Of a stretch of DNA of 64,000 bases, positions 3,171-62,571 are shown one piece after another; positions within the stretch are counted from its first letter, which is position 1, and each line of letters starts with the position of its first letter. Below the pieces are notes generated by a model. It was not told where the DNA came from, made no database searches, and was given only the letters and a program-made list of their open reading frames with translations. Both the position numbers and the translations under genes were made by a program. This DNA is from an uncultured Candidatus Saccharibacteria bacterium. GTDB lineage: Bacteria > Patescibacteriota > UBA1384 > JAMDBS01 > DAOVQR01. Location: NCBI GenBank assembly GCA_964481135.1, contig CAYZSW010000001.1, positions 7,963 through 71,962 of the forward strand, given 5' to 3'.

Positions 3171-3174
3171 AAAA

Positions 3175-35290: not shown

Positions 35291-35382
35291 ATACAATGTT
35301 CAAAACAAATGTTTAGGATTTTGTATTTTGTTCATTGAAATTTGTTTAAGATTTCAAAATTCGAAATTCAGATTTGAATGAT

Positions 35383-40031: not shown

Positions 40032-42230
40032 TTATTTTTTCTCCCAAATATCTTTTCTAAATATTAAGTATGCAAATCCGCCAGTCAATAAAATCGCAAG
40101 TAAAATATTAAACCAAAGCGCTGACCCCGTAGAAACTAAAGTACCTAAGCTAGAGCCATCTTTAATGCTTGTTGTAATTGAACAAGATTCTGTTGATACT
40201 TTTACTTCATCAGACTTCATAGATTTTTCACCTGCAGCATTATGAGCAATCACATAATAGCAGATTTCTACATCACAATTTAAACCAGTAAATACATAAC
40301 CGGTATCAGATGTTGATGTAATATATTTTCCAGTACAATCGAAAATATCATATCCTACGGCACCATCTACAGCATCCCATGTTAAAGTAGCCATACCTCC
40401 ACCGTTATAAACAAGCTCAATGTTTTCAGGTTTTTTGTCAGAAATATCCTGACCAGTTGAACACTTACCAGTGTTAACACTGGCTGTATTGCTAGGATTA
40501 GATTCCAATTCCTCATAACCAGCTGTTACATAATAACCGTAATTTGTTTCACAATTAAGTCCATCGATTACAAAACTCAAAGTATTCATATCAACTTGTG
40601 CTATCAACACTCCGCTTTCCGCGTTATAAATTCTATAATAACCAACACTGCTTCCTTCTAGTTTGTTCCATGCCAATTTTATTGAACTATTGGAAATCGG
40701 GGTGGCGGTTAGATTAATAGGTGATGGAGGGGGTGTCGGTGATACAGTTGGACTGGCCGTTGGACTAGATGTTGGGGTTAAAGTTGGAGAAGGTGTTGGG
40801 GTTATGCCACAATAAGTTTGCATACATTCTGTTCCATCTCCATATTGCGTACAATCAATTCTATATGCCCATTTAAAATAAACTGGTCCACCTGGAGTAT
40901 CAGTAGTCGCATCACACCCATAAACCTTTGTTCCTTCACATTTAAATTGACCTGATTCACATTCTGAGGGTGGAGTAACTGTTGGTGTCGGTGTTGGTGA
41001 CGAAGTTGGTGTCTCTGCTGGACAATTTAAATTTTGTGCTATCATTTCATTTGAATCGGCATATCTACCAGCACCAGTAGAGTTAACATATTTTGTCTGA
41101 ATTTTATAGGAAACATTATCATAACTTGGATAAAATTCTTCATGGGTTAGTGTAGATTCTTTATAAATAGTTGAATTGGTCGCAGACCACTGATTATTAG
41201 TTACAGATGATTTTACATAAGGCTGATAATAGTAAAAAGTGTATCCAGAGTAAGGAGTACCTTTTTGCCAACTGAGAGTATTTCTTTGTCTTCCAACTGT
41301 TGGATATCCACTAACACAAGTGGATTGAATTTTATTTAGAACAGGACTTTCATTGGCAGGAGTAGGAACTGGCGTAACACTTCCACATGAATTAGCGTAA
41401 GTTTCATAACTTCTATATGTTTTTCCATCGGCTTTATTTTTTACATATACTCGATAAGTGTAATTTGTAGATCCATCACTAAATGTATCTGTATGAGAAC
41501 ATTGTCCAGAAGAATTACATGGCCAAGTGGAAGTAATCGGTCTTTGATTAATTTGTGGACTACCAAGTGTAAATGTGCCACTCCCTGTTCTTCTCTGAAC
41601 TGTTACCCATTCGTATTTATCCCAAGGATTTGATCCTAAATTCCAAGTAAGTTGATTAGTTTTATTATTACAATTTTGATTTAAATTTAATGTAAAAGCA
41701 TTTATACATACATTTGGGTCAGTTGATGAAGTTGTACAGGTTGTACTTGGAGTTGTAGTAGGAGCGGGAGAAGTTGTAGGACTAACAGAACAAGATGCGA
41801 CCTGAACTGGACCATGTCTTTGACCTCCAGTACAATTACATTGAGCTGAAAAACTTCTTGAAAGAGAGTCTGCTGGTCCCCAGACACATTGTTGATCTCT
41901 TAATAAATTTTGGCATTGACTAATAGTTGACCATTCTGCGGAATTACCTAAACGAGTATAATAAGTACACTTACAGGCAGAAATCCCAATACCGGGGTTA
42001 ACTCTTAATGTGTCTGTTTGCATTCCGTTTGCACAAGTCGTTACAGCAGTCAAATTATTATTAGTAACAGTTCTAGTGGTACTCGCCCATAAACTAATTT
42101 TTCCTGTTTGATTGGCCCAAACTAGCGTTGCAAGTGAAAGAAAAAATATTCCTAAAACTATTACTAAGTAAGTCTTGCTCTTTTTAGTAGCAAATAATGG
42201 CTGATGCCAAATTGATTTTTTTTCTGACAT
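40032..42230 (-). CDS. large Cys-rich surface protein with Ser/Thr/Pro linkers and a C-terminal LVSTG-type cell-wall sorting signal
   Basis: Signal peptide, many Cys, TPTSSPTPTPT linkers, Ig/FN3-like repeats. C-terminus is LGTLVSTGSALWFNILLAILL...FRKDIWEKK. GC-richer than the backbone. Confidence 0.6.
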   Translation of the reverse strand: MSEKKSIWHQPLFATKKSKTYLVIVLGIFFLSLATLVWANQTGKISLWASTTRTVTNNNLTAVTTCANGMQTDTLRVNPGIGISACKCTYYTRLGNSAEWSTISQCQNLLRDQQCVWGPADSLSRSFSAQCNCTGGQRHGPVQVASCSVSPTTSPAPTTTPSTTCTTSSTDPNVCINAFTLNLNQNCNNKTNQLTWNLGSNPWDKYEWVTVQRRTGSGTFTLGSPQINQRPITSTWPCNSSGQCSHTDTFSDGSTNYTYRVYVKNKADGKTYRSYETYANSCGSVTPVPTPANESPVLNKIQSTCVSGYPTVGRQRNTLSWQKGTPYSGYTFYYYQPYVKSSVTNNQWSATNSTIYKESTLTHEEFYPSYDNVSYKIQTKYVNSTGAGRYADSNEMIAQNLNCPAETPTSSPTPTPTVTPPSECESGQFKCEGTKVYGCDATTDTPGGPVYFKWAYRIDCTQYGDGTECMQTYCGITPTPSPTLTPTSSPTASPTVSPTPPPSPINLTATPISNSSIKLAWNKLEGSSVGYYRIYNAESGVLIAQVDMNTLSFVIDGLNCETNYGYYVTAGYEELESNPSNTASVNTGKCSTGQDISDKKPENIELVYNGGGMATLTWDAVDGAVGYDIFDCTGKYITSTSDTGYVFTGLNCDVEICYYVIAHNAAGEKSMKSDEVKVSTESCSITTSIKDGSSLGTLVSTGSALWFNILLAILLTGGFAYLIFRKDIWEKK

Positions 42231-42259
42231 TTTATCCCTCCCTATTGATAGAAGCAGAA

Positions 42260-42697
42260 TTACGCAGATAGTGACGCAGAAGTACGCGGAACTTTACTGC
42301 GAGCTTTATCATAAACTCTGCGTATTATTTCTAACTTTTCCGCTCCAAAATTTATTAATAATCCTAATTTATATTTTGAACCTTTTAAATATAACCAAAA
42401 TTGTCGCTTATCTTCTTTAGTTATAAATGGTTTGCATTTAAGTTCTAAAAGAATTTTATCATTTATTATTTTATCTGGTTGATATATTCCAACCTTTTTA
42501 TTATTGAAATAAATATTAATTTTTACTTGATTTTTTACTTTAAGATTTTTGTTTTCTAGAGCAATAGTTAATGCCCTGTCAACAATTTTTTCTTTAAATG
42601 CTCCACCAAAGCATTTCCATACTTCAAAACATGCTCCTCTGACCTTGTAAGTTATATCTTTATAAAGTAATTTGTCTTGATTCATATGCTTCTGCAT
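42260..42697 (-). CDS. GxxExxY family protein
   Basis: GACFEVWKCFGGAFKEKIVDRAL signature. Flanked by imperfect inverted repeats rich in CTGCGTAATT and ACGCAGATA. Confidence 0.7.
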   Translation of the reverse strand: MQKHMNQDKLLYKDITYKVRGACFEVWKCFGGAFKEKIVDRALTIALENKNLKVKNQVKINIYFNNKKVGIYQPDKIINDKILLELKCKPFITKEDKRQFWLYLKGSKYKLGLLINFGAEKLEIIRRVYDKARSKVPRTSASLSA

Positions 42698-42775
42698 TAT
42701 TCTGCGTAATTATCTGCGTTTATCGGCTTCTACAATTTATTAAATCAAAAATATTAATATTTCACAAGTGGATAA

Positions 42776-48001: not shown

Positions 48002-48134
48002 TGTCGGATGCCCCTCCCTGCACAGAACTACACAAATATGAACACGGATTATACACTAAAATTGATAGTTTCATCACAAGAGCAACTAATCAGTGTATTA
48101 TTTTGTGTTCCCGCCTGTGTGAATTTTGTGTGTT

Positions 48135-49119: not shown

Positions 49120-49326
49120 AATTAAATAAAATTTCTAATTTTTCTAATTGATCTAATTATTCTAAACAAATACCAAACTATAATTTCTAATGTCTAAATG
49201 TATTTTCTCTTTTTTGTTATTGGTGTTTGGGTCATTTTTTAGGTTAATTACCTGCCCGCCATTAGCTATCGCTTCAAGCGATTAGCAGGCGGGGAAATTA
49301 GGTTAATTAGGTTAATTTCTACTCGC
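49120..49326. repeat. repeated leader element, copy B
   Basis: GAAATTAGGTTAATTAGGTTAATTTC, a CCTGCCCGCC...GGCGGG hairpin and TTAGAATAATTAGATCAATTAG, ending in CAATTAGAAAAATTAGAAATTT before an ATG. Confidence 0.5.
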
Positions 49327-51251
49327 TATGGTGAATAATTCACCGACACATCGTAAACAACCGGTGTTTTGCTATTCTCAAGTGTTGTTAAATATATTTT
49401 ATATTTTATATATCTTCCTAAAGAATGTGAAAGAGGAATTGCTTCTCCATCTGGATTGGTAAATCGCGTTGCTTCTGTTCCGTCTGGTCCTACAAAATTC
49501 CATGTTGCATTATCAGTATTAGTAGCAATTTGGAATTCTACATTTGTTACTCCGGGATCGATCAATTCTGTCCAAAAAATCCGATTAAATGAAACTTCAT
49601 CACCTGCATCAAAAGTACTTGATATATATTGCCCAGACGGAAAGTAACCAGTTTCTGCGATAGCTGAAAGTCGAAACATTGTATCTTGATTATTAAATAC
49701 ATTCCAATTTGTACCGGCATTATTGCTTTCTGTATATCTTGCATCTAAACCCAGATAATTAATATCATTGTCTGGGCTTCGGTCTAAATTTTCTGCGTGT
49801 TCTATGTGATATGATCGATTATGTGCAGTTCCAGGTGATTTTAGATAAAATCTATATTGCCTTCCTTCTATAAAAGCAATTTTTGGGTCAAGTGAAATTT
49901 CATGTAGTTGATAATCCATAGTAATATCTGTTCTTGTAACAAAAATTTCGTTAAATAAAATAGTATTGGTTGTCATATCTTCAATAACTAAATATAAATC
50001 ATCTTGAGGCTGAGCACCAACACTTTTTTTAACATAAATTGCCATTCTATTAAAAAACTCTGTACCCTCTTTGTAAGTAAAAATTTCTCCTTTATAAAAA
50101 TTTCCGTAAACATCTTTGTCTCGTGCTTCATGATATGGATTTCCTTCGGCTTCTGGGTTGCTATCAGTAAATAATAAAATATAAACAGGCGTATTATTAA
50201 CATCTGACCAGTTTGCGCCACCATTACTAGTCCAGCGGATCATAAGATTTAAATCATCTGCACTAGTTAAAGGCACAACCAAGTTTAAAGGATTTAAAGT
50301 TCTAAATATAATTGATCTTCCGGCATTTATTTGACCTGAATTATGCTCTATTACTAGGTGATAAATATTACCAGCTGTAATAGAAACATTTTCATTTAAA
50401 TTAAGTTCATGCCAGCCAGTGTTATTAGTTTGAAAATCTTTATAACCCTCATTATTACCTCCCAACCAATTACCACTTGGACTACCGTTATTATCTGATT
50501 GCAGTCCATATCTATATGTAGGAGTTTGATTTTGATGAGTAGAAGAAATGTAAATTCTAAGCGCTCTTACCTCTTTTGTATTTTGAGCAGTAAAACGAAA
50601 AGAAACTTTTTTACTTGAATTATCTAATGCATCTGTTTGGCTAGTACCAAAAACAGAGAATCTGTTACCAACTTGCTTGCCTTCACCTTGTCCATAAGCA
50701 AGCTTAATTTCACCACCTTGATCGTTTGTAACTTCTGTATCATTTACAGTCCCATCTATAAAATCATTATAAGTTGTTTCAATCCAATTAGCATTGTTTT
50801 GATAACGAGTCAGATATATTTCCTTAGATATAGATAAATTACGGGGTTTTTGCCAAGAAACAGAAATAATAAATTTTTTTGTCGATGGGTCCTCAATTCC
50901 ACTTTCTGATATTTCTCCGCTAACCGCATTACGGTAAACTGATTCGATAGAGATGCTTCTAGTAAAATTATCATCGATATTTTCTACACCATCTGCTAAA
51001 TTCCACACTCCGTTATTATTTATAATACGAGCGGGATATGTATGATAAACTAAGTCATTCCACGACCGCTCGTGTATTGAATAAAGAGCATTAACTGCTT
51101 CTTGAACATATTCTTCTGCTTGAGTTTGTTTTAATGAATTAAACTGAGCTTGTGAAATATCTACAAAAAGACCAATAACTGAACTAATTATTACACTAGC
51201 AATAGCAGTAGCAATAATAAGCTCAATTAGAATTTGACCTTTATTTGACAC
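49326..51251 (-). CDS. large (~640 aa) pilin-like protein, candidate tip or PilY1/PilV-like adhesin subunit
   Basis: The ORF-track N-terminal extension translates a CA-rich leader. A GTG ~51251 gives MSNKG / QILIELIIATAIASVII, a classic short prepilin leader, followed by 600 aa of beta-rich sequence. Confidence 0.5.
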   Translation of the reverse strand: MSNKGQILIELIIATAIASVIISSVIGLFVDISQAQFNSLKQTQAEEYVQEAVNALYSIHERSWNDLVYHTYPARIINNNGVWNLADGVENIDDNFTRSISIESVYRNAVSGEISESGIEDPSTKKFIISVSWQKPRNLSISKEIYLTRYQNNANWIETTYNDFIDGTVNDTEVTNDQGGEIKLAYGQGEGKQVGNRFSVFGTSQTDALDNSSKKVSFRFTAQNTKEVRALRIYISSTHQNQTPTYRYGLQSDNNGSPSGNWLGGNNEGYKDFQTNNTGWHELNLNENVSITAGNIYHLVIEHNSGQINAGRSIIFRTLNPLNLVVPLTSADDLNLMIRWTSNGGANWSDVNNTPVYILLFTDSNPEAEGNPYHEARDKDVYGNFYKGEIFTYKEGTEFFNRMAIYVKKSVGAQPQDDLYLVIEDMTTNTILFNEIFVTRTDITMDYQLHEISLDPKIAFIEGRQYRFYLKSPGTAHNRSYHIEHAENLDRSPDNDINYLGLDARYTESNNAGTNWNVFNNQDTMFRLSAIAETGYFPSGQYISSTFDAGDEVSFNRIFWTELIDPGVTNVEFQIATNTDNATWNFVGPDGTEATRFTNPDGEAIPLSHSLGRYIKYKIYLTTLENSKTPVVYDVSVNYSP

Positions 51252-51333
51252 AGAATTACACAAATTGGAACACAAATTACCACACCTATTAAGTTGATGT
51301 GTATTTCTGTGTTCTGTTTTGTGTTTTTCTGTG

Positions 51334-51858
51334 TTAATTAACATCAATTACTCCCAACTTATTAATTGTAAAATTTCTAGTTTCGCCGGAGCTTAACTCA
51401 GATAATGAAAAATTTTTATTTTGCTCATCGTAATTCCTTACATTACCAAAAACTTTCTCAAAGACAATTGTCGAATTATCTGGTAAATTTGAATCTAATG
51501 ATAAATTGTCTGGTAAATTTACATTGATATTATAATTATCACTCGGGTTATAAATAATTCCCCGATATAAAACAATTTTATTTTCAACTGAATCAAAATA
51601 TATGCTAAAATTTTCGCCCGACTCAGCTGTATCGCAATTTTGGGTACACATTCTACTCATTGCCTGATTCTGTGCCTGATATATAGTAGATAATATTTGA
51701 GTCGAAAAAGAATCCAAACTGTTGGTTCGTTGAAAATTTAAATAAGAAACCCACGATCCAGCTAAAATAATACCAAAAATTCCTATCGTCACTAATAGTT
51801 CAATTAAAGTAAAACCTTTTTTAACTTGTAGCTGGTAGCTTTTTAGCTTATTAGACAA
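51334..51858 (-). CDS. pilin-like protein (prepilin-type N-terminal domain)
   Basis: TTG start after GGAGGGGC. KKG / FTLIELLVTIGIFGIILA. Confidence 0.65.
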   Translation of the reverse strand: MSNKLKSYQLQVKKGFTLIELLVTIGIFGIILAGSWVSYLNFQRTNSLDSFSTQILSTIYQAQNQAMSRMCTQNCDTAESGENFSIYFDSVENKIVLYRGIIYNPSDNYNINVNLPDNLSLDSNLPDNSTIVFEKVFGNVRNYDEQNKNFSLSELSSGETRNFTINKLGVIDVN

Positions 51859-51948
51859 TGCCCCTCCGTTTACTAGCTTATTAGTTTGTAGCCTTTTAAC
51901 TTATTAGAGAAAAATATCTAAGAAGCTAATTAGCTAATTCCTAAGAAG

Positions 51949-52407
51949 CTATTTTAAATGCTCTTTAATCTTTTCTACAACTTGATTTGGTGTAAGGTTT
52001 GCTTTTACTAAATAATCATTTGCGCCAAGTTTTTTTGCTCTATCAATATCAGTTTGCTGGCCAAGATTAGAAAATACTACTACTGGTTTTTTGGCGTTCG
52101 GCCAACTACTGGCACGAAGTTTTTCTAATATTTCAAATCCATCTACTTTTGGAAGCATCAGGTCTAAAAGTATAATACTATAATCATTTTTCTCTAATTT
52201 TTCTAAAGCTTGTTGTCCATCAAGAGCATTATCAACTTCAAAACCTTCCATTGAACATTTTGTTGAATACATTTTTACTAGTAATTCATCGTCTTCTATA
52301 ATTAATAATTTACCACCATTTTTTTCCAATTGTGCTGATTGATTAGCTGTATTGTCTGCTGGCTGTGGTTGACCCTGAGGTTGAACTGGTATTTGTTGAT
52401 TTTGCAT
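51949..52407 (-). CDS. single-domain response regulator (CheY-like receiver only) with a Q/P-rich N-terminal tail
   Basis: REC-domain motifs (LLIIEDD, DLMLP, receiver lysine region). Start chosen at MQNQQ after GAAAGGAG. Confidence 0.7.
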   Translation of the reverse strand: MQNQQIPVQPQGQPQPADNTANQSAQLEKNGGKLLIIEDDELLVKMYSTKCSMEGFEVDNALDGQQALEKLEKNDYSIILLDLMLPKVDGFEILEKLRASSWPNAKKPVVVFSNLGQQTDIDRAKKLGANDYLVKANLTPNQVVEKIKEHLK

Positions 52408-52456
52408 AATTATACTCCTTTCTTTCACACAGAACTACACAAATAGGAATACAAAT

Positions 52457-52882
52457 TTACACTTTAGTTAAAAACGGTTTTCTATCATTGGTGTAAATGA
52501 TTCTTTTGACATATAGTTTTAGTGTAGAAAAATTTACTAAATAACCTATTTCATATTTACTATTTCTTAAATAATGATAAAGTTGTATTTCGTCTTGTTT
52601 AGTAGTGAATCTTGACGATTTCAATTCTATAATAATTTTATTATCGATAATTACATCTGGTTTATAACTTCCTACTTTTTTACCAGTCTGATTAGAATAA
52701 ATACTAATTAATTTTTCTTTTTCAATTTTTATTTGTTTATTTGTTAAATATTCAATCAATAAATTCTGATAAATTGATTCTTTGTGACCAGGTCCGTATT
52801 CCTTTCTTATTTCGAAAAAACATCCTTGAACAATATAGCTTAATTCCTTGTAAAGGAACAGCTTCTTATCTGGTGCGTTCAT
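52457..52882 (-). CDS. GxxExxY family protein
   Basis: [29 protein letters not shown]. Start MNAPDKK follows AGGAACACAA. Flanked by ~20-bp imperfect inverted repeats at 52425-52465 and 52870-52920. Confidence 0.7.
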
Positions 52883-53023
52883 TTGTGTTCCTGTTTGTGT
52901 TGTTTTGTGTTGTAACCAACGGTAATGTAAAGCTAAAATTGGAGCCATGCCCTTCGCGACTCTCTACCCATATTTTACCACCACATCCTTCAACTATCAA
53001 TCGGGAAATGTAAAGGCCTAAAC

Positions 53024-55201
53024 CTAATCCTGACCCTGACCTTCGATAACTTTTTTAGTTCCACCAGATACTTGATAATACTTAGTAAATAATGCCTCTT
53101 GTTTTTCTTCGGAAATACCTTGTCCAGAATCAGAAATAGAAAACTGGGCGAATTTATCTTTTAATTGTATATCAAATTTAACCCAACCACTTTTAGTATA
53201 TTTTATAGCGTTATCTATTAGATTAGTAAGAACTTGCTGAATTTTATCAGAATCAGTATAAACAAAAAGTTGCTCAGGAATTTCCTCAAGCTTAAATTCA
53301 AGACCTTTTTTCTCGGCTATTGGAGATATCTGTTTAATTAAAGTTTTTACAATGGGAATAATATCTATATTTTTTGGCTGAATAGTAATTTTCCCTTTTT
53401 CTATACGAGATGAAGTTAAAAAATCATTAACCATGCGAATTAATCTTTCGGAAGCAGATTGAGTTTCTTTAAGTGGTTCGCGTAAAGTTTCTGGAATTTG
53501 CCCAAAGTCACCATTTAAAATCATATCATTATATCCCTTAATGGCTGTCATTGGAGTTCTTAGATCGTGTGCGGCAATATTTAAAAATTCATCTTTCATT
53601 TTTGCAAGTTCTCTTTCTTTTGAAACATCATGAAACACTACCACGCAACCTATAATTTTATTGTTATTATCTCGTAGAGGAGAAGCACTATCTGCAACTG
53701 GAATTTTTTTATTATATTTTGTAAGTAGGTAAGTATGATTTGTCATATAGGTAATCGTGCCACTAGTCATAGCGTCTCGGACAAATTTATCATTTATTGA
53801 ATTGTCTTTTTCTAAATAAAATTTAAGTATATCTTTGTATACTTTGCCAACTGCTTCTTCTTTAGTATATCCAGAAATTTTTTCTGCAATAGAGTTAAAC
53901 ATAATTATCTTTTCATCTAGTCCAATTACAAATACAGCATCTCCAATAGAAGAAAGTATTGCTTGAATTTTATTTCGTTCGTGTTCAGTTTTTAGTTTTT
54001 CCTCATTTACATCTTCTAAAATATTTAAAATTGCCTTTTGTTGATTTTGCATTTTTTGATCGTTTAGTTTAATCTCTTTTGTTTGCTCTTCTACTTTTTT
54101 ATCAATTTCGGCACGAGATACTTTAATAGCACTAGTTAAATTATCAATTTCTCTTGATAGGTCTCCGATTTCATCTTTAGAATTATTACCAACCTTGTAA
54201 TCCAAATCTCCTTTTTGAATAATTTTTATGCCTTTATGCAAATTTTCAATTGGTTTAGAAAGAATGCGAGCAACAAATAGAGCTACCGCAAAAGAAAATA
54301 ATAAATAAACTAAACTAATAACTATCAAAATATTTATTTCATGATTAATTGGCGCAAAAACTTCCTTTTGATCAATCTTAACAACTAGTCCCCAGCCGGT
54401 GTGGTCAATATAACGAGACGCAGAAAAAACTTTTTCGTTACGATAATCAGCTAAATCTGTAAAGTAATCTTCGTTATTTAAAAGTGCCTGAACAAGTGGT
54501 ATGTGTGTATCTAATTTAGTTACTTTTACACCGGGTGGATAAGGATGTCTGGTTTCTAAAAAATACTCAACATCATTGTTTTCATCTAACCTAGCAATTA
54601 TTGTTTCTCCTGTTTCACCCAACCCAGAGTAATCATTCATAATATTAATTATTTCTTCTGGACTTGTTTGAACAATAGACACACCTAACACATTTTCATC
54701 TTTTTGTATTGGGCCGGCAAGATAAAACCAATTTTCTTTATTTTCTTCGTCTTTTACAAATGTAATATAATTTTTTTCCTTGCCAAATTCAAAATATTCT
54801 TCGCTAGAAAAATTTTTGTTTTCTTGATCTTTTTCACTTGAAGCAATAACTTTACCATCTTTATCTGTTATCCAAAGAGCGTTATAATCTGTACTTGATT
54901 TTTTAGCATCTTCTAATCGTCGCGAGAGGTCATCTTTGTCTATTGAATCAGGATTGTTATAATAATCCTGCATTAAATCAATAACCCCCACTCTTGAAGT
55001 AAAAATTTTAATTCGTTCTAAATTAATATTAATAAGATTTTCAACTCTTGATTCTTGTAAATCTGCTATTACATTTAATTTTTCCTCGGTATTATCTAAA
55101 GCATTTTTTCGCATCTCAAAATAACCATAAAAAATGGATATCAAAAAAGAGAAAAATGCTATACAAACTATGCTAATAATAATTCTTGTTCTGATTTTCA
55201 T
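53024..55201 (-). CDS. sensor histidine kinase (TM, extracytoplasmic domain, HAMP, PAS, HisKA, HATPase_c); 3' end frameshifted in an A6 run
   Basis: [14 protein letters not shown]-box and [10 protein letters not shown]1 box. The ORF stops at GQGQD, but the G2 box [41 protein letters not shown] continues in another frame down to ~52876. Confidence 0.75.
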
Positions 55202-55252
55202 AATAATTATATTGGTAACGCGTAATGGGTAATAAGTAACGCGTAATTAATA

Positions 55253-55789
55253 TTATCTAATATTTTTTCTTGCCGCATACATTCTTTCAGCTAAACCACC
55301 ATTTTGTAAAAAATCTTTTTCTAAACTCTGAAGCTGGCGATCTAATAGATAGTTAGCTTGGTGAATTAAACAAATTATTGAATTTGCTGCAGATTCTGGA
55401 TCTGACATATAGGTCATATAAGTCTCATAAGACCTATTCGACCTATAAGATAATTTTCTAATTTCCTGAATTCGTGAATCTTCTTTGTTCCAAAGTTTTA
55501 ATTTTTTCTGACGCAAAAAATCCAAATAATCTTCTAAAAGTTCTTCTAAACTTGCCCTAGCCACACCAATAAGTTTTATTTCAGATTTTTTTGATGTACC
55601 TGAAACTTGACTTCCTTCAACAATATTTTGCTTTCCACTTCTTGCGGCTTGGACCATTTGATCACGCGTCCTAGAAAATTTACTAACATATTTATTACAA
55701 AATTGGTCTGTCAAATCGTAAACTATAACCGAATTTTGATAGGATTTTAACTTTTTGTATCCTCCATGAATAGATATAAAATTTGACAT
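55253..55789 (-). CDS. four-helix-bundle protein (TIGR02436 / 23S rRNA intervening-sequence protein family)
   Basis: KSYQNSVIVYDL...GKQNIVEGS pattern; 178 aa. Confidence 0.65.
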   Translation of the reverse strand: MSNFISIHGGYKKLKSYQNSVIVYDLTDQFCNKYVSKFSRTRDQMVQAARSGKQNIVEGSQVSGTSKKSEIKLIGVARASLEELLEDYLDFLRQKKLKLWNKEDSRIQEIRKLSYRSNRSYETYMTYMSDPESAANSIICLIHQANYLLDRQLQSLEKDFLQNGGLAERMYAARKNIR

Positions 55790-55887
55790 TTAATTTTTCC
55801 TTAAATTTTATTTATTCTACTATCTTACCTACTTGCCTACAGGTCTTACTATTTATCTACCATCCTACTGGCCTACTTTCTACTAGC

Positions 55888-56208
55888 CTACTTGTCTAAT
55901 TTCTCCACTAACTTCATAATTTCTTCTTGGTGTTTTTTTACTACTTCCTGATTTCTAAATTTTTTGGCAAACTGGGCTAATTCTCTTAGGGAATTTATGA
56001 TTGATTCTTTGGTTGGATTTTCAAAATCCCCTCCGGAATCAACGAATGCTTTTTTAACAATTTCTACACAGTATTCTTTTTCCATAGATTCCTGATTAGA
56101 AACTCCTGCATCGCTACAATGTGCCTGGCTAAAACATTCGCTTATTGCATCGCGCACCATAAGTGGTGTAATTTTTTCATTTAAATCAACTCCGTAAATT
56201 TTTGTCAT
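55888..56208 (-). CDS. hypothetical protein
   Basis: 106-aa acidic ORF. Leader has (A)GTAGG repeats. Confidence 0.4.
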   Translation of the reverse strand: MTKIYGVDLNEKITPLMVRDAISECFSQAHCSDAGVSNQESMEKEYCVEIVKKAFVDSGGDFENPTKESIINSLRELAQFAKKFRNQEVVKKHQEEIMKLVEKLDK

Positions 56209-56259
56209 AATTTTCCTTTCTAATGGCCTACTAGCCTATCTTTCTACTAATCCAAAGGC

Positions 56260-56472
56260 CTAGCGTTTATCTAAATTAATTATTCTTAAAATTTCCTCGC
56301 AAATTTTCATATGTTCAATTTCTTCGTCACGGATTTTTTCCACAACTTCTCTTTTTTGAGGATCTTTTAAAGTAAGCAAATAATTAGAATACAAATCCTT
56401 TGCTTGTTTTTCTATAAAATACAAATCATAAAACATTTCCCTTAATGTATCGTGACTATTTTCCTTGTTCAT
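56260..56472 (-). CDS. hypothetical small protein
   Basis: 70 aa. DEEIEHM is faintly ferritin-like. Overlaps the upstream gene by 17 nt. Confidence 0.3.
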   Translation of the reverse strand: MNKENSHDTLREMFYDLYFIEKQAKDLYSNYLLTLKDPQKREVVEKIRDEEIEHMKICEEILRIINLDKR

Positions 56473-57631
56473 ATTTTATAAGCTCCTTAAATTTATTTTC
56501 ATGATCTATACTCTCCTCGACTAAGTGATTTAATCTGTTAATTATTTGCTGTTTTTTTTCATTATCTAAATCAGAATGCTCTACTTTTAGTAAATAATAT
56601 GATTTTAATTTTTGAATTACACTTTCTTCGACATCTATTGCTATTTGAAATTTTTCTTCCCAGGTTTCTGAATCTTCTGTTTTATATTCTTTATTTTTTC
56701 TTAATTTGCTAATTTGTTCTTTCAGTTCAATCATTCTGATTTCTCTGCCGACTAACACTTCATTAATTTTTTCTAATTCCTTAGTTCTTTGGGCAACTTT
56801 TCCTTCAATATTTGTTTTTTCTTCTTTAAGCTTGTTAGTCATTTGATTGATATTTTCACTAAGTAATCCTATTTCATCTCGTGATTTAATTTCTAATTTT
56901 TTATCTAAATCTCCATCAATAATCTTTTGTGAAATATCCTGAATCTGTCTAACTGGGTTTAAAATTGATCTAATAAAGATAAAATAAATTATTATTAGAA
57001 AAATAATAAAAATTATTATAAAAACAATATACAAATAAATTTGATAGTTGATTGATTTTTTTAAATTTTCATTTGATTGACTTAATTTTTTGGTGGATAA
57101 ATCTATAGCTTCATCGTATGCCGTATTGCGTTTAGTTAAATATTGATCTAGACCAGATTTATAAATTTCTTTTTGTTTCCAATACTCACTGCTTTCCAAT
57201 ATTTTTTGCGCCTCATCTTTATTGCCTTCATCAACTAATTTTATTGCCTCTTCTTCCATTGCAACAAGTGCAAGATTGGCTTCATCTACATTGGAAAATG
57301 CTTGTTTATCTTCATCGTCTCCTTTTTCTATAGCTTGATTTATTCTTAGCTCGAGTTTAGGCACAAATTCTTCATATCTAGTTTTCCACTTTTTATCTCC
57401 TGTAAAAGCATAATTTCTAGCCGATTGGGTTAATACTTCATCGTCATAGCGAATAAGCTCAGCTATACCATCAAGATATGAAGTTTCATTTAAATCATTA
57501 ACTAATTCGGTAAAATCAGTTTCTAAATAATTAATATTTTTACTTTCTTCAGAAATAATAAAATACCCGACTGAAATTGTCAGCATCATTAACGCAATCA
57601 AGATTAATAATATTTTTGTTCTGATTTTCAC
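56456..57631 (-). CDS. HAMP-domain membrane protein (MCP-like sensor module with no output domain)
   Basis: TM, 170-aa periplasmic domain, TM, HAMP (DEIGLLSENINQMTNKLK), coiled coil ending LVGREIRMIELKEQISKL. N-terminus MKIRTKI is paralogous to the kinase MKIRTRI. Confidence 0.6.
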   Translation of the reverse strand: MKIRTKILLILIALMMLTISVGYFIISEESKNINYLETDFTELVNDLNETSYLDGIAELIRYDDEVLTQSARNYAFTGDKKWKTRYEEFVPKLELRINQAIEKGDDEDKQAFSNVDEANLALVAMEEEAIKLVDEGNKDEAQKILESSEYWKQKEIYKSGLDQYLTKRNTAYDEAIDLSTKKLSQSNENLKKSINYQIYLYIVFIIIFIIFLIIIYFIFIRSILNPVRQIQDISQKIIDGDLDKKLEIKSRDEIGLLSENINQMTNKLKEEKTNIEGKVAQRTKELEKINEVLVGREIRMIELKEQISKLRKNKEYKTEDSETWEEKFQIAIDVEESVIQKLKSYYLLKVEHSDLDNEKKQQIINRLNHLVEESIDHENKFKELIKYEQGK

Positions 57632-57694
57632 ATTTGCTCCGCAAAACTTATAACTAATATTTCATAACTCATAACCATATCTAATAACTTAAAA

Positions 57695-58084
57695 CTATTT
57701 TTTGCCTTTTAAAGTCAATAAACTAGAAGCAAGCATTTTGGTTATTTGTTGACATTCGTCTAATAACGGTTCTGCCTCTTTTTTCTGAATTAATTTTGAA
57801 TCTTTCAATAAACTTAGCCAATACAATGTTTCATTGGCAGATTTTAAAGAAATATCATAATATTTAATAAATTCTTTTTTTGAACTAGATGATTTTGCTT
57901 CTACAATATTTGCTCCAATAGATGTTGATGATCTTAAAAGTTGATCTGAAACTATCCAATACATTTTTTTATTAGGCAAGCTATTTATAAACTTGATAAT
58001 GGATAATGAAAAATTATACGCTCTAATTTTTACATTAGAAGATTTAACATTTGAGTTATGATTATGAGTTATGAGTTTTAACAT
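57695..58084 (-). CDS. four-helix-bundle protein (TIGR02436 family)
   Basis: YNFSLSIIKFINSL...RSSTSIGANIVEAKS. Its ATG lies 3 nt after the PAS gene stop. ATAACTCAT-type inverted repeats occur at both ends. Confidence 0.65.
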   Translation of the reverse strand: MLKLITHNHNSNVKSSNVKIRAYNFSLSIIKFINSLPNKKMYWIVSDQLLRSSTSIGANIVEAKSSSSKKEFIKYYDISLKSANETLYWLSLLKDSKLIQKKEAEPLLDECQQITKMLASSLLTLKGKK

Positions 58085-58089
58085 ATGAA

Positions 58090-59337
58090 TTATTTTCCTT
58101 TCAACCTTTCAATCTCTTTTTTAAGCTCTATCATTTTAAGTTCGCGACCCACCATAAGATTATTCATTTTTTCTGTAAATTGCGTTTGTTTTTTTAATTT
58201 TTCTTGCGCTTCCATTTCTTTTGAAATATCAAAAATAAATCCTTCTAGGTGTTTAATATTTCCCTTATTATCTTTTATTGCAAGTCCCTTTTCATGAACC
58301 CAAATATTTTTTTCATCTTTACTTATGATACGATAATCAATTTCCCAGTATCTATTTTCTTTTACTGCCTTGGAAATTCCTTCTGATACTAGACTTCTAT
58401 CTTGTTTGTAAATTACACTTTCATAAGTTCTAATTTTATTTTCTACAAAATCACTTGCCTTATATCCACACAACTGCTCAATATAATTACTTACAAACAT
58501 CATGGTCCAATTTTTATCAAACTTACATTTGTAAATAATTCCCGGGATATTATTAACTAAATTTGAAAATTCTTTTTGAAACTGCTCAAGCTTAATTTTA
58601 TTTAGCTTATTTTCATTAATATCTCTATCTATTCCTCTATATCCGGTGGATCCATCTTGTTTTTTTACTGGTAGACCATAACTTAAAATCCAAAATATTT
58701 TTCCATTTTTATCTAAAAGACGATTTTCTAAATTGATTGTCTTTTTACCTTCTTTAATAAAAGCTAAGCCAATTTTTTTAATTTCTTCTTTGTCTGGAGA
58801 CAAATCATAAAAATGTTTTTTGCCAATGACCTCTTCTGGCTTATATCCCAAAACTTGTTCTATAGAAGGACTTACATATGTATACAAACCATTTTCATCA
58901 ACTTCCCAAATAAAAGATTTGCTTTCACTAACTAAACTTTCGTATGCCTTATTTAATTCAAGAATTTTTTGTTCGTTTTTAATTCTATTGGTAATATCGT
59001 GAGCTAAACTTAAAATTGCTTTTTTGCCATGAAAGTCAATAACTTGGGAATTAATTTCTACTGGAATTTCCCTGCCATTACTTGTAACATGAGCCGAACG
59101 AAATACTAACTTTCCTTTGGATTTTAACTCCTGGATTCTTTGGGGCACCATTTTAGCATATTTAGGTGAATCAATTTTCTGTGGGCCAATTTCTAATAAC
59201 TGTTCTTTGGTGTATCCTAACCGACTGCAAGCTTCTTTATTGACATCTAAAAAATTACCCTCTAAGTCGTGGATAAATACAGCTTCATTTAAATTTTCGA
59301 ATATTATTTGATATTTATCATCCATTTTTGCTTTCAT
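58090..59337 (-). CDS. multi-PAS sensor protein lacking a kinase domain
   Basis: Three PAS/PAC-like repeats, then a coiled coil ending MVGRELKMIELKKEIERLKGK. Confidence 0.6.
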   Translation of the reverse strand: MKAKMDDKYQIIFENLNEAVFIHDLEGNFLDVNKEACSRLGYTKEQLLEIGPQKIDSPKYAKMVPQRIQELKSKGKLVFRSAHVTSNGREIPVEINSQVIDFHGKKAILSLAHDITNRIKNEQKILELNKAYESLVSESKSFIWEVDENGLYTYVSPSIEQVLGYKPEEVIGKKHFYDLSPDKEEIKKIGLAFIKEGKKTINLENRLLDKNGKIFWILSYGLPVKKQDGSTGYRGIDRDINENKLNKIKLEQFQKEFSNLVNNIPGIIYKCKFDKNWTMMFVSNYIEQLCGYKASDFVENKIRTYESVIYKQDRSLVSEGISKAVKENRYWEIDYRIISKDEKNIWVHEKGLAIKDNKGNIKHLEGFIFDISKEMEAQEKLKKQTQFTEKMNNLMVGRELKMIELKKEIERLKGK

Positions 59338-59366
59338 TTTTGAAAAAAATTTTAATTTTCTTAATG

Positions 59367-60596
59367 TTATCTGTTGGAAAAATTACCAACTAAACCATAT
59401 ATCGGGCTAATAATTGTTAAAACTAAAGCAGCTACAATTATTCCCACTATTAACATTAATACTGGTTCAATAAGATCAGACAGTGTTTTCAGCATAATAT
59501 CAACCTGCTCGTCATAATACTCCCCTAGTTCACTCAAAACCTCATCCATCTTGCCTGATTTCTCACCAACTTTAGTAATTTTAATCAACATATTTGGAAT
59601 TACTTTTGAATGAGACGCAAAAGATTGAGACAATGATTTACCACCCCTGACTAATTTTTCTGAATCAATAATTGCATTTTTTAAATTTATATCAAAAATA
59701 CCTTCTGAAACGATTTTCAAAGAATCTGTCATTGGAACACCTGCATGTAATAAAAGTGATAAAGTAGAAGTTATTCTAGACATATCGTATGCCTGAGTAA
59801 GTTTTGAAACATAAGGAATCTTTCTTAAAAAAAAGGAATTGGTATTTTTTCCTGCAGAAGAACGAAAAAAAACAATAACAAAAATAATAATTATAAAAAG
59901 AATTGGAAAACTTAAATACCAAAAATTTATAAAAATCGTTGTTAGAAACTGTAGAATTTTTAAAGTAAAAGGTAAATCTATTTGCATTCTGGCAAAAACT
60001 TCTAATATTTTTGGCACAACTAAAATTAACATTACAAAACCCATAATAGCTAAAGCAACAAGCACAACAATTGGATAAGTAAAAGCAGAAACTACTTTTG
60101 TTTTCATACGAACAGTTTTTGAAAGTTGTTTATAAATACTAGCCAAAACTTCTGAAATTTTTCCACTAACTTCTCCTGCCGAAACCAAAGAAATAAAGGT
60201 TTTGTCAAAAATTTCAGGATATTTTGCTAATGCTTGGGAAAGTGGACGGCCACTTTCAATATCATATTTTATTTCAATTAGAATTTTATTAAATTTTTTT
60301 GATTTTGTATCTTGAGATATCACTTCAATAGAATCGGCAATTGGCATACCAGATTTAAGCATTGTAGAAAGATTTCTAGCAAATGTTGCCTTGTCATTAA
60401 TACTTACTCCGCCAGAAAACATCTCGGCAATCGAAAATTTGGAAAATGCAGAATCTTCTTTTTTTTGAATTGTAATTATCGTATATTTTTGAAGTTTTAA
60501 AAAACTAGCGATTTCATCTTCGCTTGAAGCGACTTTTTCGCCTTTGATTATTTCATTATTTGAACCCATTGCTTCATAATAAAAATTCATTATCAA
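59367..60596 (-). CDS. pilC: type IV pilus assembly platform protein PilC (GspF family)
   Basis: Two T2SSF repeats and 3 TM segments; 409 aa. Confidence 0.85.
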   Translation of the reverse strand: MIMNFYYEAMGSNNEIIKGEKVASSEDEIASFLKLQKYTIITIQKKEDSAFSKFSIAEMFSGGVSINDKATFARNLSTMLKSGMPIADSIEVISQDTKSKKFNKILIEIKYDIESGRPLSQALAKYPEIFDKTFISLVSAGEVSGKISEVLASIYKQLSKTVRMKTKVVSAFTYPIVVLVALAIMGFVMLILVVPKILEVFARMQIDLPFTLKILQFLTTIFINFWYLSFPILFIIIIFVIVFFRSSAGKNTNSFFLRKIPYVSKLTQAYDMSRITSTLSLLLHAGVPMTDSLKIVSEGIFDINLKNAIIDSEKLVRGGKSLSQSFASHSKVIPNMLIKITKVGEKSGKMDEVLSELGEYYDEQVDIMLKTLSDLIEPVLMLIVGIIVAALVLTIISPIYGLVGNFSNR

Positions 60597-60688
60597 CCGT
60601 TCTAAATGTTGAATATGTTCTATCTCTTTATTTGTTCAAATTGCTACAATTACAACACTTTGAACAATTAGAACATTTTGAACATTTT

Positions 60689-62377: not shown

Positions 62378-62571
62378 GCCCCTCCCTGTAAACAAATATA
62401 CACAAATCAGAATACAAACCAACACGCTGAAATTGATATTTTGATCAGTAAAATAATATTACTAGTGTGTTATTTTATTTTCGCATCTGCGTATATTTGT
62501 ATTATAGAGTCTATTTCATTATATCAAAAATTAGGATATTTAGATATTGTTAATTGTCTAATAATATTATT

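What the first reader, a model, noticed from the sequence alone, without database searches (positions are those of the whole stretch)
55201..58090. Two four-helix-bundle (23S-IVS-type) genes placed directly after sensor modules that lack kinase domains
The PAS-only protein (58090-59337) and the HAMP-only protein (56456-57631) both end in the same coiled-coil motif, VGRE(L/I)(K/R)MIELK, where a HisKA domain would normally follow. Each is followed by small unrelated genes including a four-helix-bundle gene (57695-58084 and 55253-55789); the first starts 3 nt after the PAS gene stop. The 57695-58084 gene is bracketed by inverted ATAACTCATAAC repeats (57640-57680 and 58030-58075); the 55253-55789 gene is flanked by short repeated motifs (direct TAACGCGTAAT at 55201-55253; (A)GTAGG-type repeats in its leader at 55789-55890). 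One reading is that insertions of these selfish-looking cassettes broke an ancestral multi-sensor kinase into stand-alone sensor modules. Alternatively they are genuine modular partners of the intact kinase at 53024-55201.
Basis: inference. Interest (0 to 1): 0.65.

Follow-up and report, generated by a model that had tools for sequence, protein, structure and literature searches.

The report
Selfish cassettes inside an intact sensor operon
The two sensor proteins without kinase domains are normal members of a large, conserved family that works beside a separate kinase, and the small four-helix-bundle genes are selfish inserts of the type known from ribosomal RNA genes, wedged between the operon's genes rather than the cause of a broken kinase.

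Summary
The genes and repeats are real, with corrections. The HAMP protein carries the motif at residues 294-304 of 391, not at its end. The "intact" kinase is frameshifted. The 70-aa gene is a conserved partner, not unrelated.

Relatives with no four-helix-bundle genes encode the same order: PAS-coil sensor, HAMP-coil sensor, di-iron protein, dCache kinase, response regulator(s). Their gene junctions overlap or are at most 27 nt.

The motif is the last part of a long helix that ends the protein. A profile search found 10,596 cluster representatives. In 132 of the 135 new top hits the motif lies within 40 residues of the C-terminus, and none has a kinase H-box.

The gene at 57695-58084 belongs to the S23p family (TIGR02436) and sits between 52-nt inverted arms made of 7-nt repeats. 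Sixty-four metagenomic relatives show the same layout, mostly wedged between co-directional genes. The Coxiella 23S rRNA intervening sequence has an S23p gene preceded by heptameric repeats. GxxExxY nuclease genes in the window (52457-52882, 42260-42697) show it more strongly.

Mechanisms are inferred only: RNase III processing of the arms, and docking of the sensor coil onto the kinase.

The parts
58090..59337 (-). Kinase-less cytoplasmic sensor: three PAS domains plus the C-terminal coiled-coil module. The motif is at residues 398-406 of 415.
   Evidence: Pfam PAS_8, PAS_9 and PAS_3 hits. The motif lies 9 residues from the C-terminus. PAS-coil genes occupy the same position in L002, L005 and L006.
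57645..58091 (-). IVS-type cassette. The S23p/four-helix-bundle ORF (57695-58084) is enclosed by inverted heptamer-array arms: 5' arm 58040-58091, overlapping the ORF start, and 3' arm 57645-57696.
   Evidence: PF05635 at 1.2e-27 and TIGR02436 at 106 bits. PDB 2RLD at 7.9e-20. Inverted repeat I1 of 52 nt. Period-7 arrays. The same layout occurs in 64 metagenomic relatives.
56456..57631 (-). Kinase-less membrane sensor: membrane helix, periplasmic helical bundle, membrane helix, HAMP, a 61-residue helix carrying the motif (294-304), a disordered linker, then an 87-residue two-helix extension (EXT).
   Evidence: HAMP is the only signalling domain found. AF2 model with pLDDT 84: helix 253-313, then helices 324-351 and 357-390. 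A family of about 315 aa ends just after the motif. The same coil-EXT form occurs in L044.
56260..56472 (-). 70-aa protein resembling an encapsulated-ferritin half-ferritin. It is the conserved partner of the EXT module and a probable metal-binding co-sensor.
   Evidence: Weak EncFtn-like hits: PF22277 at 6.7e-4 and TIGR04535 at 3.7e-7, both below cut-off. A homologous 63-83-aa gene directly follows every coil-EXT gene in 8 of 8 loci. Alignment.
55888..56208 (-). Orphan 106-aa gene, flanked on both sides by direct AGTAGG-type arrays (plus-strand CTAC arrays at 55829-55900 and 56210-56246). Probably a further insert.
   Evidence: No Pfam, NCBIfam, PHROGs or PADLOC hit. No homolog in 86 sensor loci or 80 four-helix-bundle loci. 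AF2 pLDDT 79.8 with no PDB fold match. Arrays.
55253..55789 (-). Second four-helix-bundle gene: a divergent TIGR02436 domain plus the TIGR04258 suffix domain. Its two flanks are not complementary to each other.
   Evidence: TIGR02436 at 33 bits (cut-off 24) and TIGR04258 at 78.6 bits. Pfam 30.9 bits, below GA 33.8. Flank duplex only -23.5 kcal/mol.
55215..55256 (.). Two 21-nt direct repeats containing GTAACGCGTAAT, in the spacer between the 178-aa gene and the kinase start; the second copy runs 4 nt into the 3' end of the 178-aa gene (55253-55256).
   Evidence: Repeat family D5. Two exact copies against 0.02 expected.
52866..55201 (-). dCache-HAMP-PAS-HisKA-HATPase histidine kinase with a frameshift in the G2-box codons (about 53024-53041). 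The open frame stops at 53024. The rest of the ATP-binding domain continues in another frame to 52866, and its last codons are encoded by the 5' arm of the next cassette.
   Evidence: Domains, with the HATPase_c match ending at profile position 72 of 111. Three-frame translation. Same 725-aa product in a second assembly that differs by 4 of 11,876 nt. Full-length homologs of 776-782 aa.
52425..52915 (-). Cassette carrying a GxxExxY (PD-(D/E)XK-like) gene (52457-52882), enclosed by ACACAAA / TTTGTGT heptamer-array arms (5' arm about 52881-52915, 3' arm about 52425-52457).
   Evidence: PF13366 at 1e-26 and TIGR04256 at 96 bits. Flank duplex of -42 kcal/mol, second strongest of 62 genes.
51949..52407 (-). 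Single-domain response regulator, the conserved last gene of the sensor module. Type IV pilus genes follow it.
   Evidence: PF00072 at 1.5e-22. Conserved position in relatives.
42225..42745 (-). Second GxxExxY cassette (ORF 42260-42697) with ACGCAGA / TCTGCGT arms. It has the strongest flank complementarity in the window.
   Evidence: TIGR04256 at 95 bits. Duplex of -46.6 kcal/mol against a non-cognate mean of -16.5, sd 5.5.

Best explanation
The region is a conserved multi-component two-component operon of a Patescibacteria-like bacterium, and small selfish cassettes have settled in its intercistronic junctions.

The native system, in transcription order on the minus strand:
1. A cytoplasmic PAS sensor.
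2. A membrane HAMP sensor.
3. A small di-iron-type co-sensor. Here it is split between an 87-residue extension of the HAMP protein and a 70-aa EncFtn-like protein.
4. A dCache-HAMP-PAS histidine kinase.
5. A single-domain response regulator.
The operon lies next to type IV pilus genes.

Neither sensor ever had a kinase domain. Each ends in a family-specific, positively charged helix with consensus ERTxELEKxNxxMVGRELKMIELKKEI. Inferred: this helix is the output element and docks onto the partner kinase. The likely docking site is the acidic AILNILEDV helix that lies at the equivalent position after the kinase's own HAMP domain. In this way several sensors would feed one kinase.

Four genes are additions in this genome: the S23p gene 57695-58084, the orphan 55888-56208, the second four-helix-bundle gene 55253-55789, and the GxxExxY gene 52457-52882. 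The S23p gene and the GxxExxY gene each sit in the loop between two inverted arms made of 7-nt repeats. Inferred by analogy with Coxiella: in the read-through operon transcript the arms pair into a long stem that RNase III cuts. That would release the cassette and let it sit between genes without destroying them. The system may nevertheless be decaying here, because the kinase is frameshifted and has lost its usual C-terminal tail.
For: Shown:
1. The operon order without any cassette is seen in L002, L005 and L006, with junctions of -11 to +27 nt. In the window the junctions touching inserted genes are mostly 49-141 nt (5 nt before the S23p gene). The same order is seen in further loci.
2. The motif is C-terminal. 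In 90 of 90 ORFs from the genome scan the tail is 8-35 aa or an extension of about 80-93 aa. The profile search gave 10,596 representatives. Of 135 new top hits, 132 have the motif within 40 residues of the C-terminus, 3 have the extension, and none has an H-box.
3. A kinase starts within 2.5 kb downstream on the same strand in 41 of 61 loci. An A[IL]LN[IL]LED helix is present in 25 of 45 of these kinases against 2 of 34 other kinases in the same loci. Net charge over 18 residues is +2.2 for the sensor coil and -3.4 for the kinase helix.
4. The AF2 model shows an unbroken helix 253-313 running from HAMP through the motif.
5. No S23p, GxxExxY or o106 homolog occurs in 1.05 Mb of homologous sensor loci.
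6. Cassette layout. Cognate flank duplexes are -46.6 and -42.1 kcal/mol (GxxExxY genes) and -26.9 (S23p gene), against a non-cognate mean of -16.5, sd 5.5. In 64 metagenomic S23p relatives the mean is -40.3 against -22.8 for shuffles. Both arms show period-7 autocorrelation of 0.55 and 0.53 against 0.33. The elements are co-oriented with the downstream gene 47:8 and the upstream gene 38:11, with a median of 59 nt to the next start.
7. Precedent: the Coxiella IVS is a stem-loop with the S23p ORF in its loop, has tandem heptameric repeats before the ORF, and is cut by RNase III at the first repeat (PMC4990558). 23S_rRNA_IVP ORFs occur in CPR rRNA insertions (PMC11270868).
Against: - No near-identical strain with an empty site was found. 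Insertion is inferred from relatives that share at most 54% identity in the HAMP protein.
- The arms of different loci pair with each other almost as well as cognate arms do: -30.9 against -34.7 kcal/mol, median cognate rank 26 of 62.
- Sense and antisense duplexes are equally stable (p = 0.14).
- Nothing therefore shows selection on an RNA stem rather than on DNA-level terminal repeats.
- The flanks of 55253-55789 are not complementary.
- Heptamer arrays also fill spacers that hold no gene, and one lies inside lepA. Some arrays may be a genome-wide habit rather than cassette parts.
- Coil-kinase docking rests only on co-occurrence and opposite charge. Twenty of 45 downstream kinases lack the acidic motif as I defined it.
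- The frameshift could still be an assembly error shared by two assemblies of one population.
Confidence: 0.7

Rival explanations
1. One reading: insertion of the cassettes split one ancestral multi-sensor kinase into a PAS piece, a HAMP piece and the remaining kinase.
For: A MAFFT alignment places GRELKMIE opposite the H-box SHELRSPM of kinases in which HisKA follows HAMP directly. A cassette does touch the 3' end of the kinase gene.
Against: - Cassette-free relatives have the same separate genes with the same ends.
- The motif ends the protein in 225 proteins examined, and none has an H-box.
- Profile comparison of the coil with the H-box region finds nothing: probability 0.5%. Pfam finds no HisKA in ten coil fragments at E up to 10.
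- The HAMP protein and the kinase each have their own N-terminal membrane and sensor part.
Confidence: 0.03
2. The four-helix-bundle proteins are functional partners of the coil-ended sensors, for example adaptors that bind the C-terminal helix.
For: Both four-helix-bundle genes lie within the sensor operon and on the same strand. The first starts 5 nt after the PAS gene.
Against: - No S23p-type gene occurs in 83 other sensor loci, 1.05 Mb in all.
- The 80 closest relatives of the 129-aa gene sit between many different genes.
- The family is known from rRNA insertions.
Confidence: 0.04
3. The inverted arms act at the DNA level. They would be terminal inverted repeats of a mobile element, moved in trans or homed by the PD-(D/E)XK-type nuclease, or hot spots for recombination or slippage. 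They would not be RNA stems.
For: - Arms are conserved as a family across loci, with no cognate specificity.
- There is no sense/antisense asymmetry.
- ORF-less hairpins with the same ACACAAA/TTTGTGT arms as one GxxExxY cassette recur at 48002-48134, 51230-51340 and 62378-62571, like non-autonomous copies.
- Many homologs lie on contigs of about 1 kb, as multi-copy repeats do.
Against: - No transposase or integrase lies in or beside the elements.
- No target-site duplication was seen.
- The strong orientation bias relative to flanking genes (47:8) fits dependence on host transcription.
- The only characterised relative, the Coxiella IVS, is processed as RNA.
Confidence: 0.3
4. The 129-aa protein is the Avd accessory protein of a diversity-generating retroelement.
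For: Same fold family. A weak hit to NF033474 DivGenRetAVD at 2.9e-5.
Against: - The score is 24.3 bits against a cut-off of 80.
- None of the ten large ORFs tested elsewhere in the window is a reverse transcriptase.
- The neighbours of the gene are sensor and pilus genes.
Confidence: 0.02

Closest known systems
23S rRNA intervening sequences that carry an S23p ORF (Coxiella burnetii, Leptospira; PMC4990558)
   Same: An S23p/four-helix-bundle ORF lies in the loop of a stem-loop. Tandem heptameric repeats lie at the 5' side next to the ORF start. The element is about 430-500 nt. ORF-less versions also exist.
   Different: Here the element lies between protein-coding genes of an operon, not in rRNA; Rfam finds no rRNA in the window. 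The 5' arm overlaps the ORF and encodes a conserved N-terminal peptide, KTQNHNSNLKS. Excision has not been shown. After cleavage an mRNA would not be held together the way a ribosome holds its rRNA pieces.
Accessory (auxiliary) sensors of two-component systems, and 'short' PAS/LOV proteins that end in a helix (comparison from my own knowledge)
   Same: Sensor domains without an enzymatic output, encoded next to a histidine kinase. The C-terminal helix is the only candidate output.
   Different: These proteins share one specific C-terminal helix motif across PAS-type and HAMP-type sensors and across bacterial and archaeal phyla. No Pfam model covers it, and my full-text search for the motif found no relevant paper.
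DGR accessory protein Avd
   Same: Same Pfam family (PF05635).
   Different: Below the Avd model cut-off, at 24 against 80 bits. No reverse transcriptase or template/variable repeats were found.
MITE-like and IS-like elements with terminal inverted repeats
   Same: Short units bracketed by inverted repeats. Copies exist with and without an ORF. They insert in intergenic spacers.
   Different: No transposase and no target-site duplication were seen. The arms are degenerate heptamer arrays rather than unique terminal sequences. Orientation is strongly biased toward that of the flanking genes.
Encapsulated ferritin (EncFtn) half-ferritins and hemerythrin sensor partners
   Same: The 70-aa protein has Glu21, Tyr28, Glu51 and His54. 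That spacing matches the EncFtn metal site as I recall it. In other loci a hemerythrin gene occupies the same slot.
   Different: No encapsulin is present. Scores are below the family cut-offs. The partner half is fused to a sensor protein. The profile match between the two halves is weak: E 0.019, probability 2.5%.

Membership tests
S23p / four helix bundle protein (PF05635, TIGR02436), gene 57695-58084 | Score above the curated cut-offs of the family models | tested here: met
   PF05635 at 96.6 bits (GA 33.8) and TIGR02436 at 106.2 bits (cut-off 24).
S23p / four helix bundle protein (PF05635, TIGR02436), gene 57695-58084 | Sequence relative with a solved four-helix-bundle structure | tested here: met
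   PDB 2RLD at E 7.9e-20 over residues 12-126. That 2RLD is a four-helix bundle is from my memory of the entry.
S23p / four helix bundle protein, gene 55253-55789 | Score above the curated cut-offs | tested here: inconclusive
   Pfam 30.9 bits, below GA 33.8. TIGR02436 at 33 bits, above 24, and the suffix domain TIGR04258 at 78.6 bits, above 40.
rRNA intervening sequence (IVS) | Located within a 23S or 16S rRNA gene | tested here: not met
   Rfam at gathering threshold finds only one tRNA in the window. The neighbours are protein-coding genes.
rRNA intervening sequence (IVS) | ORF enclosed by inverted repeats able to form a stem, with tandem heptameric repeats next to the ORF start | tested here: met
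   Arms of 52 nt, 71% complementary. Period-7 arrays. Described for Coxiella in PMC4990558.
rRNA intervening sequence (IVS) | Excision from the transcript by RNase III | not testable with these tools
   Needs RNA end mapping or an in vitro cleavage assay.
Histidine kinase (applied to the PAS-only and HAMP-only proteins) | HisKA phospho-acceptor helix with the H-box, and a HATPase_c domain | tested here: not met
   No HisKA or HATPase_c hit. No H-box in 135 family members. No coil-to-H-box profile similarity. No HisKA hit in coil fragments at E up to 10.
Histidine kinase (gene 53024-55201) | Complete HATPase_c domain including the G2 box, in one reading frame | tested here: not met
   The HATPase_c match stops at profile position 72 of 111. 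The G2 box lies in another frame.
DGR accessory protein Avd (NF033474) | Score above the model cut-off, and an adjacent reverse transcriptase | tested here: not met
   24.3 bits against 80. No RT among the ORFs scanned.
GxxExxY protein (TIGR04256 / PF13366), genes 52457-52882, 42260-42697 and 38411-38788 | Score above the curated cut-offs | tested here: met
   TIGR04256 at 95-96 bits against a cut-off of 35 for all three genes. PF13366 at 94 bits against 22, tested for 52457-52948 only.
Encapsulated-ferritin-like half-ferritin (PF22277, TIGR04535), gene 56260-56472 | Score above cut-off, and the metal-site residues | tested here: inconclusive
   19.8 bits against 27, and 30.1 against 125. Glu21, Tyr28, Glu51 and His54 can be read from the sequence. 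The reference spacing is from memory.
Transposon / MITE | Transposase, target-site duplication, near-identical copies | tested here: inconclusive
   Inverted arms are present and there are ORF-less copies with similar arms. No transposase domain was found in the cassettes. No target duplication was seen by eye. Copy identity across the genome could not be measured from one window.

The most novel reading that the evidence does not exclude
Two linked readings are not excluded.

(a) The C-terminal helix ERTxELEKxNxxMVGRELKMIELKKEI defines an undescribed, very large class of trans-acting sensors, with more than 10,000 clusters at 50% identity in Patescibacteria, DPANN and other archaea, Planctomycetota, Omnitrophota and others. 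These sensors would plug their basic helix into the acidic AILNILEDV helix of a partner kinase, so that several sensor proteins plus a di-iron protein drive one kinase.

(b) S23p and GxxExxY cassettes are 'intervening sequences of messenger RNA': elements that live in operon junctions and are cut out of the polycistronic transcript by RNase III. That would extend a phenomenon so far known only from rRNA.
Probability: 0.3. Interest if true: 0.7.

Novelty: new variant of a known kind. Interest (0 to 1): 0.45.

Why it matters
1. For annotation: kinase-less HAMP and PAS proteins that end in this helix should not be called truncated kinases or pseudogenes. They form a family of more than 10,000 clusters with a conserved genomic partner.

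2. For signalling biology: if the helix docks onto the kinase, this is a simple and widespread way to wire several sensors into one two-component pathway in organisms with very small genomes. Here that would include an iron- or oxygen-binding module, next to the type IV pili these organisms are thought to use to attach to hosts.

3. For mobile-element biology: the S23p and GxxExxY proteins have had no known role since S23p ORFs were found in rRNA intervening sequences. Finding the same stem-plus-heptamer layout at operon junctions, strongly co-oriented with the flanking genes, gives a second and far more common habitat in which to test what the arms and the proteins do.

Tried and rejected
The profile search replaced it.
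- Pseudo-H-box idea. The MAFFT alignment was suggestive. hhalign of the coil profile against an H-box profile gave probability 0.5%. Pfam found only generic coiled-coil noise in ten coil fragments. Rejected as unsupported.
- Cognate specificity of the arms. The cognate partner ranks at median 26 of 62. No covariation signal.
- Strand test with G-U pairs. Sense -34.8 against antisense -36.3 kcal/mol, p = 0.14. Uninformative.
- The flanks of 55253-55789, and of the pair o106 plus 55253-55789, are not complementary: -23.5 and -14.3 kcal/mol.
- The orphan o106 has no family hit in four libraries. Its AF2 model matches no PDB fold at E 0.001 or better. The afdb50 library was unavailable.
- Defence-system reading: PADLOC gave only weak Cas4-like noise for one GxxExxY protein.
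- Organism name: the exact-cluster look-up returned no names.
- Promoter and terminator scan of 51800-59500 showed no excess over shuffles and no terminator-like site in any spacer between the genes (all three lie inside coding regions).
- The extension and the small protein as homologous halves: aligned in register, but the match is weak at E 0.019 and probability 2.5%.
- GxxExxY protein against the PDB by sequence: no hit.

Full report
**1. What is there**

The window is a chromosomal contig with 30% G+C. It carries dnaE, dnaK, lepA, murJ and comEC. It also carries a long minus-strand run of type IV pilus genes.

Between the pilus genes the minus strand encodes, in order:
- a PAS-only protein (58090-59337);
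- a 129-aa S23p/four-helix-bundle protein (57695-58084);
- a HAMP-only membrane protein (56456-57631);
- a 70-aa protein (56260-56472);
- an orphan 106-aa protein (55888-56208);
- a 178-aa four-helix-bundle protein with a suffix domain (55253-55789);
- a dCache-HAMP-PAS-HisKA-HATPase kinase (53024-55201);
- a GxxExxY (PD-(D/E)XK-like) protein (52457-52882);
- a single-domain response regulator (51949-52407).

A second public assembly (L001) holds the same arrangement and differs by 4 of 11,876 nt.

**2. Check of the observation**

The ORFs, the shared motif and the repeats are all real.
- The longest inverted repeat in 55150-58150 has arms at 57645-57696 and 58040-58091. The arms are 52 nt long and 71% complementary.
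- Both arms are period-7 arrays.
- TAACGCGTAAT occurs twice against 0.02 expected by chance.
- CTAC-type arrays flank the 106-aa gene on both sides.

Six points need correcting.
1. The HAMP protein has 87 residues after the motif.
2. The spacer after the PAS gene is 5 nt, not 3.
3. The 178-aa gene is below Pfam's cut-off but passes two NCBIfam models. Its two flanks do not pair with each other.
4. The kinase is frameshifted inside its G2 box. The sequence [26 protein letters not shown]... continues in another frame to 52866.
5. The 70-aa gene is a conserved partner, not an unrelated gene (section 4).
6. Heptamer arrays fill many spacers of this contig.

**3. The sensors are not broken kinases**

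*The HAMP-only family.* The HAMP-only protein has 227 relatives at E ≤ 0.001. Most are about 315 aa and end 6-22 residues after GRELKMIELKK.

*Relatives without cassettes.* Three relatives fetched with their neighbours show the same operon with no four-helix-bundle or GxxExxY gene. The order is PAS-coil, small protein or hemerythrin, HAMP-coil, dCache kinase of 776-782 aa, then one or two response regulators. Their junctions are -11 to +27 nt. In the window the junctions that touch an inserted gene are mostly 49-141 nt; the one before the S23p gene is 5 nt.

*Genome scan.* A scan of 185,579 species genomes returned 80 loci. They come from Patescibacteria, Omnitrophota, Planctomycetota, Elusimicrobia, DPANN and other archaea, and others. 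These loci hold 90 ORFs with the motif.
- In 80 ORFs the motif lies 8-35 residues from the C-terminus.
- In 10 ORFs an extension of about 80-93 residues follows it.
- In none does a kinase domain follow it.

*Profile search.* A search with only the 37-column coil profile against 1.84 billion representatives gave 10,596 hits at E ≤ 0.001. Of the 135 new top hits:
- 132 have the motif within 40 residues of the C-terminus;
- 3 have the extension;
- none has an H-box.

*No trace of HisKA.* The coil shows no profile similarity to the H-box region. No Pfam model covers it. A full-text search for the motif found no relevant paper.

*Structure.* The AF2 model of the HAMP protein has pLDDT 84. It shows one unbroken helix from HAMP through the motif (residues 253-313). 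A disordered linker follows, then a two-helix hairpin, which is the extension.

**4. What the native system looks like**

*Gene order.* A kinase starts within 2.5 kb downstream on the same strand in 41 of 61 loci, usually followed by response regulators.

*The di-iron slot.* Between sensor and kinase there is often one of two things. One is a hemerythrin gene. The other is the pair "coil-extension plus a small protein of 63-83 aa". Every coil-extension gene is followed by such a small gene, in 8 of 8 loci. One of these loci (L044) has the extension on the HAMP-type sensor, as in the window.

*The small protein.* It gives weak EncFtn-like hits. It has Glu21, Tyr28, Glu51 and His54. As I recall the encapsulated-ferritin metal site, that spacing matches it. 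The extension aligns with the small protein in register, with EE and DSxxH motifs, but the match is weak. I infer a split, metal-binding four-helix bundle that acts as a co-sensor.

*A candidate docking site.* Kinases directly downstream of coil-ended sensors often carry an acidic helix, A(I/L)LN(I/L)LED. It sits at the position after HAMP that the coil occupies in the sensors. It is present in 25 of 45 such kinases against 2 of 34 other kinases in the same loci. Over 18 residues the sensor coil has net charge +2.2 and the kinase helix -3.4. I therefore propose that the coil docks on this helix. This is an inference, not a result.

**5. What the four-helix-bundle genes are**

*Absent from sensor loci.* No S23p-type, GxxExxY or o106 homolog occurs in 1.05 Mb of homologous sensor loci.

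*A very large family.* The 129-aa gene has 2,302 hits at E ≤ 1e-5 among 2,319 candidates; the 119 closest listed relatives are 59-71% identical. Named members are Patescibacteria. Many sit on contigs of about 1 kb.

*The same bracketed layout elsewhere.* Eighty metagenomic loci were fetched; flank duplexes could be scored for 64 of them.
- The region around the start and the region after the stop are complementary. The mean duplex is -40.3 kcal/mol in 64 loci, against -22.8 for shuffled arms and -23.4 for displaced downstream sequence.
- Both arms show period-7 autocorrelation of 0.55 and 0.53, against 0.33 for shuffles.
- The conserved N-terminal peptide KTQNHNSNLKS is encoded by the 5' arm. 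In some loci the arm lies upstream of the start codon instead.
- The elements are wedged between co-directional genes in the same orientation. The counts are 47:8 for the downstream neighbour and 38:11 for the upstream one. The median distance to the next start is 59 nt.

*Other cassettes in the window.* The two strongest flank pairings among 62 genes belong to GxxExxY genes, at -46.6 and -42.1 kcal/mol. The non-cognate mean is -16.5 with sd 5.5. The 129-aa gene ranks fifth at -26.9.

*Hairpins without a gene.* Hairpins with the same kind of arms fill other junctions of the pilus operon. Examples are 51230-51340 (z = -7.9), 48002-48134 and 62378-62571.

*Precedent.* The Coxiella 23S rRNA intervening sequence has the same ingredients. 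It is a stem-loop with an S23p ORF in its loop. Tandem heptameric repeats precede the ORF. RNase III cuts at the first repeat (PMC4990558). 23S_rRNA_IVP ORFs also occur in insertions within rRNA genes of CPR bacteria (PMC11270868).

*Not rRNA, not a DGR.* Rfam finds no rRNA in the window. The Avd model is not met and no reverse transcriptase was found.

**6. What remains open**

Whether the arms act as an RNA stem or as DNA-level terminal repeats is undecided.
- Arms from different loci pair with each other almost as well as cognate arms do.
- Sense and antisense duplexes are equally stable.
- The orientation bias and the Coxiella precedent favour RNA.
- The ORF-less copies and the conserved arm families favour a mobile-DNA reading.

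No empty site in a near-identical strain was available. Insertion is inferred from distant synteny only.

The kinase frameshift, together with the replacement of the kinase's usual C-terminal tail by codons from the next cassette's arm, suggests the system may be decaying in this genome. A shared assembly error is not excluded.

**7. Verdict**

The finding points at real features, but its main interpretation is wrong. What is there is a conserved, intact-by-design multi-sensor operon into which selfish cassettes have inserted. The S23p and GxxExxY cassettes have the layout of an rRNA intervening sequence.

Two aspects go beyond routine annotation.
- The coil-ended sensor family is very large, and I found no description of it.
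- The intervening-sequence layout occurs at operon junctions rather than in rRNA.

Both are variants of known kinds, and their mechanisms remain inferred.

Noticed in passing
window 20968-20997 (inside lepA, 20050-21849, minus strand): A perfect TTTCGAA x4.3 heptamer array lies inside a roughly 15-residue in-frame insertion (NSKFEIRNSKINDLK) that the LepA of relative L002 lacks. Heptamer arrays therefore also occur inside an essential coding gene.
   Followed up: partly
window 51230-51340, 48002-48134, 62378-62571, 49120-49325, 3171-3364, 60591-60688, 51859-51948, 1500-1660: Intercistronic spacers fold into long imperfect hairpins built from inverted heptamer arrays with no ORF in the loop. 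Three of them (51230-51340, 48002-48134, 62378-62571) share the ACACAAA/TTTGTGT arms of the GxxExxY cassette at 52425-52915. In those at 48002-48134 and 62378-62571 the 3' arm is followed directly by a GGGAGGGG ribosome-binding site and the next gene.
   Followed up: partly
window 6651-6674 and 16168-16191: A G+C-rich element (GGAATTCAYCCACTTGTCCGCCTT, 0 copies expected by chance) with further shared upstream sequence lies ahead of dnaK and ahead of the gene at 16295. Similar G+C-rich palindromes sit in spacers at 3171-3364, 35241-35382 and 49120-49325. No Rfam family matches.
   Followed up: no
window 53024-53041: The histidine kinase is frameshifted within GGTCAGGGTCAGG, in its G2-box codons. 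A second assembly that differs by 4 SNPs shares the frameshift. The restored frame would end at 52866, overlapping the start of the GxxExxY gene, and it lacks the conserved C-terminal tail seen in homologs.
   Followed up: partly
window 38372-38788 (plus strand): A third GxxExxY gene sits directly upstream of a XerC/D-type tyrosine recombinase gene (38825-39835). Its flanks share inverted words (TTGCTAA/TTAGCAA, TTCAAC/GTTGAA) but in non-nested order, and they pair only weakly.
   Followed up: partly
L006 12709-15649; also L038, L040, L053, L084, L087: Many genomes carry two or three coil-ended sensors in tandem, or a second sensor-kinase pair next to the first. In L006 a 192-aa PAS-coil gene overlaps the start of a second kinase.
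   Followed up: no
window 55888-56208: The orphan 106-aa protein gets a confident single-sequence AF2 model (pLDDT 79.8: a beta-hairpin plus four helices). It has no family hit, no PDB fold match, and no homolog in 166 fetched loci. AGTAGG-type direct arrays lie on both sides of it.
   Followed up: yes
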